A stretch of 5,286 nt of DNA from the IMG/VR virus record IMGVR_UViG_3300029079_000036. One strand, given 5' to 3'. Every line of letters starts with the position of its first letter. Within the stretch, counting starts at the first letter, position 1. Source of the stretch: a virus. Its lineage: Duplodnaviria; Heunggongvirae; Uroviricota; Caudoviricetes. Positions 1 through 3,000 of the stretch are shown piece by piece. Made by a program: the position numbers.

Positions 1-3000
1 CTGGTACGTAAATTCGATGCGCTTGAAGCTAAATGTGCGGCACTGGAAAACAAAATAATACCAGTGTCAGCTGAACTACCACCAGCAAATGAAAGTGTTC
101 TGTTATTTGATGCTAACGGAGAAGGCTGGCTGATTGGCTGGCGTTCTCTCTGGTACACCTGGGGACAAAAAGAAACCGGAGAATGGCAGTGGACATTTCA
201 GGTCGGGGACATTGAAAGCGTCAATATCACTCACTGGGCAGTAATGCCAAAAGCACCGGAGGCTGGAGCATAATGACCACATTTACCGATAAAGAACTGA
301 TTAAAGAAATCAAAGAGCGTATCAGCAGCCTGGAGGTTCGAGACGATATTGAGCGCCGTGCTTATGAAATTGCTCTGGCATCGCTGGAAGAGGAGCCGGT
401 GGCATGGCTACATTCAGACAATGGCTTAGGTATTCCAGCAATAACCAGGAGTAAAAACATTGCTGACAGTTGGTTATCAAAGGGCTGGTATGTTCAGCCG
501 CTATATATAGCCAAGCCAGTGCCGGTGGTGCCAGATGCTCGTCCGTCTTTAAATAATGGCATAGTCGGTTTTGATGAAGGCTGGAACGCCTGCCGCGCCA
601 CCATGCTTCACGGTGTCAAACCTGTAAGCCAGACTTACAAGTTGAACAAGCTGTCTGGCAACTCTCCGGTAACTCCGGATGGTTGGATAAGCTGTAGTGA
701 GCGAATGCCGAACGATAAACAATATGTTTGGTGTTGGGGTAAGTCTTACGACTGGACTGAGTGCGATACCTTCGAAGGGTATTACGATTGTTCGAGAAAC
801 AAATGGTGGGCAGTTACTGACAATGGGGAAGAACCGGCATCGAAAGTAACCCACTGGATGCCGCTACCGGAGCCGCCGCAGGAGGTGAAGTAATGAACAA
901 CTTAATGACAACAAAACAAGTTGCCGAATTCTGTGGCGTTTCAGTATCGACTGTTCTTCGCTGGAACAGTGTAAACAGGAGAACGGGCCAGAAATACAGG
1001 CCTGACTTTCCAGATCCTGATATTAAATCATGCCCAAATAAATGGGCATCACACAAGATTTACAGGTTTGCAGGGGTTATTGAGTAATGTGTATTAGCTC
1101 TGACGTGAACTGACATATCTATGGAACAGAGCTAAACCTAATCCAACTGTCCGATCTACGCCATAAGAAAACATTGCTCTCTTCAGGCTATTCCAATCAA
1201 TGGGTAAAGGCCAAAATTGCTACAATATGGGCCATCACTAAGAGTGCCAAACTACAGGAAAAACTTCTCTTCTGCTGATGGCTGTTTTGAACTGAATAAA
1301 AATACGTAATCCAATACAAATTGACTGATGATATCTGCCAACTGCTGAGCAAAGGGCAGACGTAATGGGGAATATAGACCTTATATGAAAGTTAGAGTAT
1401 CTTTAGGGTTAGTAACCCCTTAAGCATTCAGAAGGGACATGCGTGTAAAAGAGAGGTGATGCATGTCGATTGAAGATGAGCCATTTATCGGGCTGCAATG
1501 CTGGACATAATACCTGGCATTGACAAACTCATTCTCTGTATCCTGAACAGCCATCTTATTGTTTTCTAACATGATGTCACATAGAATGAAGAATCAACTA
1601 AACTGAACATTGAGGAGAGCAAGTAATATTTTATTCTATATAAAAGAAATAAAACGCAAATCGATAGAGCAATCAATATTAAAGTCTGGATTTAGCCAGA
1701 TTTCTTATATGAGGTTATAATGAGCAAATATTTGATCAAGCTAGTTTTAACAGCAATGATATTAATAGCTGTCTTTGTTGGTATATATCTTGCCTACGGA
1801 ATCGATAATGAAACATTCAAATATCTGATAACATGTCTAATGACAGCTATTCCCGTAATCTTTTTAAGTGTGTTTATTAAGCAGTTAACCAATGCGATGA
1901 CATCATTAGCAAAGTCTCTTATGGGAATTGCTCCTAACTCTGTTTCTAAAATACTAGAGGCTGCTATTTTTATTTTAGAAAACAACGAAAAAGTCGTCGA
2001 AAAGTTAATTATCAGGCGCGCAATAAAAATTGTGGTTATGCAGAAACATACTGCAAAAAAAAATAAACATAAAATAAATAAAAGAAAAGAGGCTATAGAA
2101 ACTGTAACAGAATTATTTTTGGCCAAATCTAAAATTGAAAACTTACGAGCAAAGTTTATTGCTGTAATAGGGATTATAGTGTTAACAATCGCAAGTCTGC
2201 TTTATAGTCAGTCATTATTAGCTTGCATAATTCCTATCACATTCTTTATTATTCTTGAAGTGAAAATAAGAGTATTGGAATTTAGAGTAACTAATGGCTT
2301 TTTCGGAAATAATAGACTAGAGGCTTTACAACTTCTGCAGTTCATTACTGACAAGAAAAATAAAGACGACTTTGATAATAAAAATGGAAAAAGAAAAATC
2401 TTTATTGACCTATTAGAAGTAGAAAACAGTCAAGTGTTTAACTCGGAGAATGGAGTCCTACAATGAATAGCGATATCGCTTCAAGATGGATTGATGCTGG
2501 ATGTAGAACCTTAACTTTTTATTACCCAATCAGAAGCGCTGTTGGTTATGTTATTGCCGCATTCCTATGGTTTTTAACCGACGCATATCCAGGCATAATT
2601 ACATTTCTTGCTATGGAGCCTAATTCTTCTGCGAGAACATCTGTATCTATTTTTGGCTTCATACTGTGCCAGATTAGAACCATATTTGATGCAACAACAG
2701 GAAAGGGGATAAACGAAGAATTACAAAGGGTTGTTAATCTTATTGACAAATCCAACTTATCAGATGTTCAAAAGCGCCTCAAATACATAGAATTGATTGA
2801 TACTGAGATAGGCAAACTTAGCAAATCGACAAGTAGCTCGAAAGGTGAAGATAAAAACCCACAAACTGAAGAATGAAATAAAGGAGCCGTAAGGCTCCTT
2901 ATTATCTATACCTCATGATGTAATCTATGAAACATAAAGTCTGCTCCTTGCTCAAAGTGGGCAGTTAGCCGAGCCAGATCTGGCACAAGCAACAATCGAC

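What the first reader, a model, noticed from the sequence alone, without database searches (positions are those of the whole stretch)
1720..2876. AT-rich two-gene membrane-protein operon next to the integrase: candidate undescribed accessory or defence module
Two translationally coupled genes (ATGA overlap) encode a 248 aa protein with three to four predicted TM segments plus a lysine-rich loop, and a 137 aa hydrophobic partner. Neither matches a family I recognise. The operon has its own SD sites, is far more AT-rich than its neighbours, and is convergent with the integrase, sharing a terminator hairpin with it. Cargo at this position in P4-like and lambdoid elements is often anti-phage or lysogenic-conversion cargo (established knowledge), and small membrane proteins are common effectors of abortive infection and superinfection exclusion. 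The defence assignment is inference, not demonstrated.
Basis: partly seen in the sequence, partly recalled or inferred. Interest (0 to 1): 0.8.

Follow-up and report, generated by a model that had tools for sequence, protein, structure and literature searches.

The report
Unnamed mobile two-gene membrane module
Two overlapping genes for small inner-membrane proteins form a self-contained, AT-rich cassette in a prophage slot that related phages fill with known anti-phage genes; the pair belongs to a widespread family that no protein-family database names, making it a good but unproven candidate for a new phage-exclusion or addiction system.

Summary
Genes A (1720-2466, 248 aa, four TM helices, Lys-rich loop) and B (2463-2876, 137 aa, two weaker hydrophobic helices) overlap by ATGA. 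Both have SD sites, are 30-37% GC and are under purifying selection. The real unit is a 1.8-kb cassette (about 1160-2951) that includes a conserved ~560-nt leader with no conserved ORF and its own hairpin. It lies between xis and int of a lambdoid phage; the window spans attP. The same backbone in other E. coli carries dGTPase, Borvo (BovA), AbiU or an HNH protein in that slot, so it is a genuine defence hotspot. Neither protein matches Pfam, NCBIfam, PADLOC or PDB; both match unknown-function PHROGs. An exhaustive profile search finds 234 cluster representatives sharing A's C-terminal core. In loci from many phyla, A is followed by a B homologue in at least 45 of 53 cases. The pair is AT-richer than its flanks in 56 of 56 loci. 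In SSU5-like phage-plasmids it is a hypervariable, co-varying locus between near-identical flanks (parA-parG and a helicase). Best reading: a cognate two-protein inner-membrane conflict module, most likely phage exclusion or abortive infection, with toxin-antitoxin-like addiction as main rival. Function is inferred, not shown.

The parts
1160..2951 (+). Mobile cassette: leader, gene A, gene B and hairpin
   Evidence: Backbone similarity to six other E. coli prophages or plasmids stops at 1143-1178 and resumes at 2971-2985. The block 1160-2951 is 77.8% identical to Pantoea dispersa chromosome L009 6686-8489. GC is 0.344 against 0.444 for the rest of the window.
1160..1719 (+). Conserved leader without a conserved ORF; function unknown
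   Evidence: It is 74% identical to Pantoea, against 53-63% identity at synonymous sites of A and B. It is also present in Rahnella L042 and L082 and partly in L015. No shared ORF, no Rfam hit, weak covariation. It was not found without A-B in the collections searched.
1277..1286 (+). Left arm of a conserved inverted repeat (GATGGCTGTT) in the leader
   Evidence: Pairs with 1546-1555 (I15). The pairing is retained in all four aligned leaders (columns 55-65 with 340-350).
1546..1555 (+). Right arm of the conserved inverted repeat (AACAGCCATC)
1711..1714 (+). SD-like GAGG for gene A
   Evidence: Read directly from the sequence; 5 nt upstream of the ATG at 1720.
1720..2466 (+). Gene A: 248-aa, four-TM inner-membrane protein. 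Variable N-terminal half (TM1-TM2 plus Lys-rich loop) and conserved core (helix, TM3-TM4 hairpin, cytoplasmic C-terminal motif)
   Evidence: ORF. TM and charge analysis. phrog_22270, E=2e-16, over residues 114-228. 234 family representatives match about residues 110-235. R189, G193, G196 and E201 are invariant in 61 sequences. dN/dS 0.18-0.26.
2055..2063 (+). A9 run inside the Lys-rich loop of gene A; site of in-frame length polymorphism
   Evidence: Near-identical alleles are 248, 246 and 245 aa and differ only here.
2452..2455 (+). SD-like GGAG for gene B, inside the 3' end of gene A
   Evidence: Read directly from the sequence; 7 nt upstream of the ATG at 2463.
2463..2876 (+). Gene B: 137-aa partner with an N-terminal helix, the PxR(T/S)xxGxxxG motif, two hydrophobic helices and a cytoplasmic helical tail
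   Evidence: ORF. phrog_17322, E=4e-13. Family alignment with P22, G28, G32 and G65 conserved. dN/dS 0.08-0.13. Lies immediately downstream of A homologues in at least 45 of 53 loci.
2881..2900 (.). GC-rich hairpin (8 bp stem), terminator-like on both strands; part of the cassette
   Evidence: Conserved in Pantoea (AAGGAGCCGTTAGGCTCCTC), where no integrase follows.
893..1087 (+). Context: excisionase, left border of the cargo slot
   Evidence: phrog_1553 excisionase, E=7e-36.
2952..4187 (-). Context: tyrosine integrase, right border of the cargo slot, convergent with A-B
   Evidence: Pfam Phage_integrase, Arm-DNA-bind_3 and Phage_int_M.

Best explanation
The finding is a self-contained, horizontally mobile 1.8-kb cassette encoding a cognate pair of inner-membrane proteins. 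It most likely acts as a phage-exclusion or abortive-infection module carried by the prophage for its lysogen. Proposed working (inferred): A inserts with both termini, the Lys-rich loop and the conserved C-terminal motif in the cytoplasm. B, made in fixed ratio through translational coupling, inserts as a two-helix hairpin with a cytoplasmic helical tail and binds A's conserved TM3-TM4 and C-terminal core. The variable N-terminal half of A provides specificity. On a cue from an infecting phage, the complex either blocks DNA entry at the inner membrane or switches to a membrane-permeabilising state that aborts the infection. Shown here: real genes, obligate pairing, membrane character, mobility, occupancy of a defence hotspot, hypervariability. 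Inferred: the A-B interaction, the topology, the trigger and the anti-phage effect.
For: (1) Slot: the same DUF551-xis ... int backbone in other E. coli carries dGTPase (E=9e-105), BovA/Borvo (3e-241), AbiU (5e-67) or an HNH protein where this window has A-B. (2) Other contexts: beside BstA in a P22-like element; next to ogr-gpD-gpU at the end of P2-like prophages; in integrase-bearing islands with AIPR, KAP NTPase plus DUF6414, DUF6602 or DUF4145. DrmC, type IIG R-M, NucC, PDC-S65 and a caspase-like protein occur within three genes in other phyla. (3) Obligate pair: a B homologue lies directly downstream, usually overlapping, in at least 45 of 53 A loci from many phyla, with no recurrent third gene. 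(4) Mobility: sporadic distribution (2 of 5,426 E. coli genomes); the same block is at 78% identity in the Pantoea chromosome; GC is lower than the flanks in 56 of 56 loci, median -12 points. (5) Specificity-type evolution: in SSU5-like phage-plasmids the flanks are 83-100% identical while A is 36-47% identical (C-terminal half only) and B 37-50%, and the two change together. (6) Both genes are under purifying selection. (7) Prior: 6 of 8 randomly chosen unknown-function cargoes of P4 hotspots protected against phages (PMC13586616).
Against: No phenotype is known. No match to any of 5,027 PADLOC models, so there is no homology link to defence. In SSU5-like phage-plasmids the pair sits at a fixed position in the parA-parG operon next to TacAT, a maintenance region rather than a variable cargo slot. 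In Pantoea dispersa the flanks are ordinary metabolic and transport genes. Most neighbours in other phyla are housekeeping genes, and defence enrichment was not tested against a background. Structure models are poor (pLDDT 43 and 59), so neither a pore nor a complex is supported structurally. No convincing promoter was found in the leader.
Confidence: 0.45

Rival explanations
1. Toxin-antitoxin-like addiction module. One membrane protein (probably A) damages the membrane unless held in check by its cognate partner (B). Loss of the element kills or arrests the cell, stabilising phage-plasmids, prophages and islets. This is compatible with a secondary abortive-infection role.
For: Obligate, translationally coupled small two-gene operon. 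In SSU5-like phage-plasmids it is the distal half of the parA-parG operon and lies beside TacA-TacT, the plasmid-stability region. Co-varying hypervariable alleles between near-identical flanks would prevent cross-neutralisation between co-resident elements. Isolated chromosomal islets between housekeeping genes and a patchy distribution across phyla are typical of TA loci. B is under tighter constraint than A.
Against: No similarity to any known toxin or antitoxin domain. A pair in which both partners are membrane proteins, with the larger gene first, is unusual for protein-protein TA systems (own knowledge). The lambdoid slot's other occupants are defence genes rather than classic TA pairs. 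Toxicity is untested.
Confidence: 0.27
2. Non-conflict accessory function: a small membrane complex that alters host envelope physiology (lysogenic conversion, stress tolerance, transport or anchoring of the element's DNA or partition machinery at the membrane).
For: Membrane localisation. Operon linkage to parA-parG in phage-plasmids. Housekeeping neighbours in many genomes.
Against: No match to GtrA, transporter or any Pfam or NCBIfam family. Extreme allele divergence between near-identical flanks argues against a conserved housekeeping-type role. Universal low GC and patchy distribution. Type Ib partition systems need no membrane component (own knowledge).
Confidence: 0.13
3. Lysis-timing pair (holin/antiholin-like) used in the phage's own lytic cycle.
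For: Small helical membrane proteins encoded by phages. B resembles a class II holin in having two hydrophobic helices and a charged C-terminus.
Against: Not next to an endolysin or spanin in the window. In SSU5 the lysis cassette (holin, endolysin, Rz1) is separate and upstream. All 60 A and 25 of 26 B homologues match only unknown-function PHROGs, none annotated as holin. The pair also occurs in chromosomes with no phage genes nearby.
Confidence: 0.04
4. Chance ORFs in AT-rich junk DNA.
For: AT-rich DNA gives long ORFs by chance; there is no database name.
Against: dN/dS is 0.08-0.26. There are 234 family representatives for A. The gene pair is conserved across phyla.
Confidence: 0.01

Closest known systems
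PHROG families phrog_22270 (A) and phrog_17322 (B), both 'unknown function'
   Same: Direct HMM membership: window A E=2e-16, window B E=4e-13. 60 of 60 A-family and 25 of 26 B-family sequences match these PHROGs.
   Different: These are unannotated clusters. Neither the pairing of the two families, nor their occurrence outside phages, nor any function is recorded in the PHROG annotation.
Kiwa (KwaA four-pass membrane protein plus KwaB)
   Same: Two-gene operon whose first gene is a four-TM inner-membrane protein; MGE-associated; acts at the membrane against incoming phage (review PMC13434031).
   Different: No PADLOC match of any kind. KwaB is a large soluble cytoplasmic DNA-binding protein, whereas B here is a 137-aa protein with two hydrophobic helices and no Pfam domain.
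Lambda RexAB (RexB four-TM channel plus RexA)
   Same: Prophage-encoded, expressed in the lysogen; a four-TM membrane protein paired with a second protein; abortive infection by membrane depolarisation (own knowledge).
   Different: RexA is a soluble ~279-aa protein and comes first in the operon. No sequence similarity was detected.
Rip1 (ring-interacting pore 1)
   Same: Small prophage-encoded protein that becomes a membrane pore only on a phage cue (PMC13434031). It was the only PDB sequence touched by the A-family profile.
   Different: The hit is not significant (E=0.25) and lies in the hydrophobic N-terminal part. Rip1 is a single-gene system with an amphipathic helix rather than TM hairpins.
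Superinfection-exclusion membrane proteins (P22 SieA, HK97 gp15, T4 Imm)
   Same: Small inner-membrane proteins encoded by (pro)phages that block DNA entry (own knowledge).
   Different: These are single genes. No annotated PHROG or Pfam family matched. The A-B pair is also common outside phages.
Toxin-antitoxin addiction modules on plasmids and phage-plasmids (for example the TacAT pair next door in SSU5-like elements)
   Same: Obligate, overlapping two-gene unit in the stability region of phage-plasmids; patchy and mobile; cognate co-variation.
   Different: No known toxin or antitoxin fold. Both partners are hydrophobic membrane proteins. Toxicity is untested.

Membership tests
phrog_22270 / phrog_17322 gene pair (unnamed) | HMM match of A to phrog_22270 and of B to phrog_17322 | tested here: met
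   E=2e-16 and 4e-13; 60 A-type and 25 B-type homologues match the same two PHROGs.
phrog_22270 / phrog_17322 gene pair (unnamed) | Core of A: two-TM hairpin followed about 60 aa from the C-terminus by [YF]R[VI]xxG[FYW][FY]GxNxxEA | tested here: met
   Window A has FRVTNGFFGNNRLEA at residues 188-202. R189, G193, G196 and E201 are invariant in 61 sequences. The motif starts 59-68 residues from the C-terminus in 132 of 134 representatives.
phrog_22270 / phrog_17322 gene pair (unnamed) | B-type gene immediately downstream on the same strand | tested here: met
   ATGA overlap in the window; at least 45 of 53 other loci.
Known anti-phage defence systems (PADLOC-DB 2.0.0, including Kiwa and PDC candidates) | HMM match to a component protein | tested here: not met
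   Zero families at E<=10 for either protein.
Kiwa | Partner is the soluble KwaB protein | tested here: not met
   B is 137 aa with two hydrophobic helices and no Pfam domain. KwaB described as fully cytoplasmic in the review.
Anti-phage defence system (generic) | Located in a variable hotspot or defence island together with known systems | tested here: met
   The same slot holds dGTPase, BovA, AbiU or an HNH protein in sister prophages. BstA, AIPR, KAP NTPase and others lie nearby in other loci. Enrichment against a genome background was not computed.
Anti-phage defence system (generic) | Reduces phage plating or burst when expressed | not testable with these tools
   Needs wet-lab phage challenge.
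Toxin-antitoxin system | Known toxin or antitoxin domain | tested here: not met
   No Pfam or NCBIfam hits.
Toxin-antitoxin system | One product toxic, neutralised by the cognate partner | not testable with these tools
   Only indirect evidence: obligate coupling and co-variation.
Holin / antiholin | Match to a holin family and position in a lysis cassette with an endolysin | tested here: not met
   No holin Pfam or annotated PHROG. No endolysin in the window. The SSU5 lysis genes are elsewhere.
GtrA-type O-antigen conversion cassette | GtrA (PF04138), GtrB or a Gtr-specific glucosyltransferase next to int-att | tested here: not met
   No such Pfam hit for A or B. Only two small genes are present.
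Rfam RNA families (for the leader) | Covariance-model match | tested here: not met
   The only hit in the window is a chance miRNA match inside int (28 bits against a gathering score of 90).

The most novel reading that the evidence does not exclude
A and B are founding members of a previously unrecognised, ancient and widespread two-gene inner-membrane immune (or immune/addiction) system. It is present in at least eight bacterial phyla and in lambdoid, P2-like, P22-like and SSU5-like elements. A conserved two-TM-plus-motif core in A is paired with a dedicated two-TM partner, and a hypervariable N-terminal module in A sets target specificity. The conserved ~560-nt leader of this clade would be a dedicated regulatory RNA or DNA element.
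Probability: 0.35. Interest if true: 0.75.

Novelty: new variant of a known kind. Interest (0 to 1): 0.6.

Why it matters
If the pair is an anti-phage or addiction system, it adds a new, very compact, all-membrane architecture to the catalogue. Both components are small hydrophobic proteins with no enzymatic domain. The family spans many phyla and several temperate-phage lineages. It would also explain a conserved but hypervariable locus in the maintenance region of SSU5-like phage-plasmids, which are common in clinical Enterobacteriaceae. The xis-int slot of this prfC-yjjG prophage family would become a documented lambdoid defence hotspot comparable to the P2 and P4 hotspots. The cassette is small enough (1.8 kb) to test directly.

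Tried and rejected
Pfam, NCBIfam and PADLOC scans of both proteins found nothing usable. Pfam scans of 61 A-family and 26 B-family members gave only scattered single hits; one A member carries DUF4880. Profile searches against PDB sequences returned Rip1 at E=0.25 for A and designed helical repeats for B; these were rejected as compositional. AlphaFold2 with the shallow alignments allowed gave pLDDT 43 (A) and 58.6 (B). Foldseek of B against BFVD gave a best E of 1.3. The afdb50 library was unavailable, and A was not searched because its model is unreliable. A and B are not detectably paralogous (hhalign probability 2.3%). For the leader: no conserved ORF, no Rfam family, RNAalifold covariation only -0.56, and no terminal direct or inverted repeats flanking the cassette. 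Full-text searches for the accessions, SSU5 locus tags and PHROG ids found no paper. None of the systems newly named in the 2026 P2/P4 hotspot paper matches.
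Full report
**What is in the sequence**

The window contains, left to right:
- two DUF551 genes (64-893);
- an excisionase (893-1087; phrog_1553, E=7e-36);
- a gap of about 630 nt;
- gene A (1720-2466, 248 aa) and gene B (2463-2876, 137 aa);
- a GC-rich hairpin (2881-2900);
- a convergent tyrosine integrase (2952-4187, minus strand);
- an AT-rich intergenic region;
- a DinI-like gene (4699-4947).

The B start codon overlaps the A stop codon (ATGA at 2463-2466). 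GAGG (1711-1714) and GGAG (2452-2455) lie 5 and 7 nt upstream of the two starts. GC falls to 0.29-0.33 across the genes against 0.43-0.49 on either side. A has four strongly hydrophobic helices (about 8-24, 37-53, 146-162, 165-181). Its central loop of about 90 residues carries 18 Lys/Arg, which by the positive-inside rule places the N-terminus, the loop and the C-terminal tail in the cytoplasm. B has two weaker hydrophobic segments (30-46 and 59-75) and a charged helical tail.

**The genes are real**

Against orthologues in Pantoea and in a P22-like metagenomic contig, dN/dS is 0.18-0.26 for A and 0.08-0.13 for B.

**The unit is a 1.8-kb cassette in a variable slot**

Only 2 of 5,426 complete E. 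coli genomes carry A-B, both in a lambdoid (yfdPQRS/CPS-53-like) prophage next to yjjG. Many other E. coli have the same backbone. Their similarity to the window stops at 1143-1178 and resumes at 2971-2985, inside the last codons of int. Between those points they carry other genes. PADLOC identifies these as dGTPase (E=9e-105), BovA of Borvo (3e-241), AbiU (5e-67, split in that record) and an HNH protein; the rest are hypothetical proteins.

The block 1160-2951 recurs at 78% identity in the Pantoea dispersa chromosome, between a YycE-like gene and an ABM monooxygenase gene and with no phage genes nearby. That block includes about 560 nt upstream of A and the hairpin. The hairpin therefore belongs to the cassette rather than being a structure shared by design with int.

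**The element**

The window spans attP. Up to 4459 it matches the yjjG-side end of integrated prophages, and from 4460 it matches the prfC-side end. It is collinear with a 33.7-kb circular record of the same backbone. Six ATGTACA repeats in two clusters flank the junction. This is a lambdoid phage, not a P4-like element.

**Family searches**

Neither protein matches Pfam, NCBIfam or any of 5,027 PADLOC models. Both match unknown-function PHROGs: 22270 for the C-terminal half of A and 17322 for B. Word-seeded searches of 5.8 billion proteins found only a handful of close relatives, plus the SSU5-type B clade; none has an informative name.

An exhaustive HMMER search of 1.84 billion cluster representatives with an A profile found 234 representatives at E<=1e-3. 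Nearly all align only to residues about 110-235. The conserved core is an amphipathic helix, the TM3-TM4 hairpin and a cytoplasmic motif, [YF]R[VI]xxG[FYW][FY]GxNxxEAxx[LI]xxFI...DKxDFxDxxGxxK[IV]F. R189, G193, G196 and E201 are invariant in 61 diverse sequences. The motif starts 59-68 residues from the C-terminus in 132 of 134 representatives. None of 61 A-type or 26 B-type members has a consistent Pfam domain, and profile searches of PDB sequences gave nothing significant. AlphaFold2 models from the shallow alignments allowed were all-helical but of low confidence (pLDDT 43 and 58.6), and a Foldseek search was empty, so structure adds nothing.

**A conserved gene pair**

I therefore back-translated the motif into a degenerate DNA pattern and scanned the genome and viral collections, which gave 43 and 20 loci. 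Local hmmsearch confirmed 53 A homologues. At least 45 of them have a B homologue immediately downstream on the same strand, usually overlapping. Most of the rest end at a contig edge or have an unmatched small ORF in that place.

The hosts include Crocosphaera and other cyanobacteria, Chloroflexota, a Scalindua planctomycete, Bacteroidales and Chitinophagales, a Lachnospiraceae, Electrothrix, Thioploca, Pseudomonas, Vibrio, Pseudoalteromonas, Pectobacterium, Rahnella, Kluyvera, Buttiauxella and Pantoea. B-type proteins share an N-terminal helix, the PxR(T/S)xxGxxxG motif, two hydrophobic helices and a helical tail. A and B are not detectably homologous to each other. No third gene recurs, and neighbours are heterogeneous.

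**Signs of a conflict module**

- The pair is lower in GC than its flanks in 56 of 56 loci, by a median of 12 points and by up to 35.
- Neighbours within three genes include BstA, DrmC, a type IIG R-M enzyme, PDC-S65, NucC and a caspase-like protein.
- Other neighbours are AIPR, KAP NTPase with DUF6414, DUF6602 and DUF4145, in integrase-bearing islands.
- In P2-like prophages the pair lies beside ogr-gpD-gpU at the prophage end.
- In SSU5-like phage-plasmids the pair occupies a fixed place: TacA/TacT, then parA-parG-A-B, a 241-aa gene and a DnaB helicase. It is hypervariable there. For L074 against L077, ParA, ParG and the 241-aa protein are 99-100% identical, while A is 47% identical over only 103 residues and B is 39%. 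Across all pairs of elements, A and B identities rise and fall together.

Such co-varying allelic diversity between near-identical flanks is what is expected of a cognate pair that determines specificity.

**Interpretation**

I conclude that this is a self-contained two-protein inner-membrane conflict module. The slot and the neighbours favour phage exclusion or abortive infection (confidence 0.45). The prior also helps: 6 of 8 randomly chosen unknown cargoes of P4 hotspots were protective (PMC13586616). The position in the par operon beside TacAT, the obligate coupling and the isolated chromosomal islets keep a toxin-antitoxin-like addiction role as a strong rival (0.27); the two roles are not exclusive. 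A non-conflict envelope function (0.13) and a holin-like role (0.04) are less likely, and chance ORFs are excluded.

The mechanism is inference throughout. In outline: A and B form a hetero-oligomer through A's conserved core, the variable N-terminal half of A acts as the specificity or sensor module, and the output is a block of DNA entry or membrane permeabilisation.

**Comparison with known systems**

Functionally the nearest analogues are Kiwa (a four-pass KwaA plus KwaB), lambda RexAB, single-protein pores such as Rip1, and Sie proteins (and own knowledge). Membership of each fails on the features tested: there are no HMM matches, and the partner is not a soluble protein. The only membership that holds is in the two unannotated PHROGs. 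I rate the finding as a new variant of a known kind (MGE-borne small-membrane-protein conflict modules), with interest 0.6. It is a well-defined, testable candidate family, but one of many unknown hotspot cargoes, and no phenotype is known.

**Unexplained**

The ~560-nt leader is more conserved (74% identity) than synonymous sites in the genes (53-63%). It was not found without A-B in the E. coli and plasmid collections searched. It has no conserved ORF, no Rfam match and no convincing promoter. It contains a conserved 10-bp inverted repeat (1277-1286 / 1546-1555). SSU5-type pairs lack it.

Noticed in passing
window 4188-4698 (junction near 4459): The window spans attP of a lambdoid phage that integrates between prfC and yjjG. 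Sequence up to 4459 matches one prophage end and sequence from 4460 matches the other. Six ATGTACA repeats in two clusters (4227-4253 and 4499-4546) flank the junction (0 of 200 shuffles reach six) and are probably integrase arm-type sites.
   Followed up: partly
window 4634-4947: The DinI-like gene (4699-4947) is preceded by a TTGACA hexamer (4634-4639) and two consensus LexA boxes (CTGT-N8-ACAG at 4640-4655 and 4668-4683), so it is probably SOS-induced.
   Followed up: partly
window 1160-1719: A conserved ~560-nt leader travels with genes A-B in E. coli, Pantoea, Rahnella and metagenomic contigs. It has no conserved ORF, Rfam hit or clear promoter, and contains a conserved inverted repeat (GATGGCTGTT 1277-1286 / AACAGCCATC 1546-1555). 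A short ORF (ENEEPIKL...) just upstream of A is intact only in some relatives and broken by stops here.
   Followed up: partly
window 2055-2063: An A9 homopolymer lies inside the lysine-rich loop of gene A. Near-identical alleles differ here by in-frame indels (248, 246 and 245 aa), suggesting slippage-driven length variation of the loop.
   Followed up: no
L002, L064, L069, L071-L079, L087-L091 (SSU5-like phage-plasmids): The A-B homologues form a hypervariable locus at a fixed position (TacAT, then parA-parG-A-B, a 241-aa gene and DnaB). Flanks are 83-100% identical while A and B fall to 25-50% identity and co-vary.
   Followed up: yes
L003 11604-13233 (p13P484A-1) versus window 4948-5286: In a circular 33.7-kb record of the same phage backbone, a reverse transcriptase plus TIR gene pair follows the DinI-like gene, suggesting a second cargo slot beyond attP. 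The window instead has the 3' end of a minus-strand ORF (5068-5286) with no Pfam match.
   Followed up: no
56 loci (L002-L081): The A-B pair has lower GC than its flanks in every locus examined (median -12 points, up to -35), regardless of host phylum or whether it sits in a phage, a phage-plasmid or a chromosome.
   Followed up: yes
window 2952-2985: The recombination boundary of the cargo slot lies inside the 3' end of int. The last 6-11 codons of the integrase differ between prophages carrying different cargo.
   Followed up: no
alignment A5 (A-family representatives): One of 61 A-family proteins carries a DUF4880 (FecR N-terminal, anti-sigma) domain (E=4e-9). This hints that the N-terminal part of A-type proteins is an exchangeable input module.
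   Followed up: no
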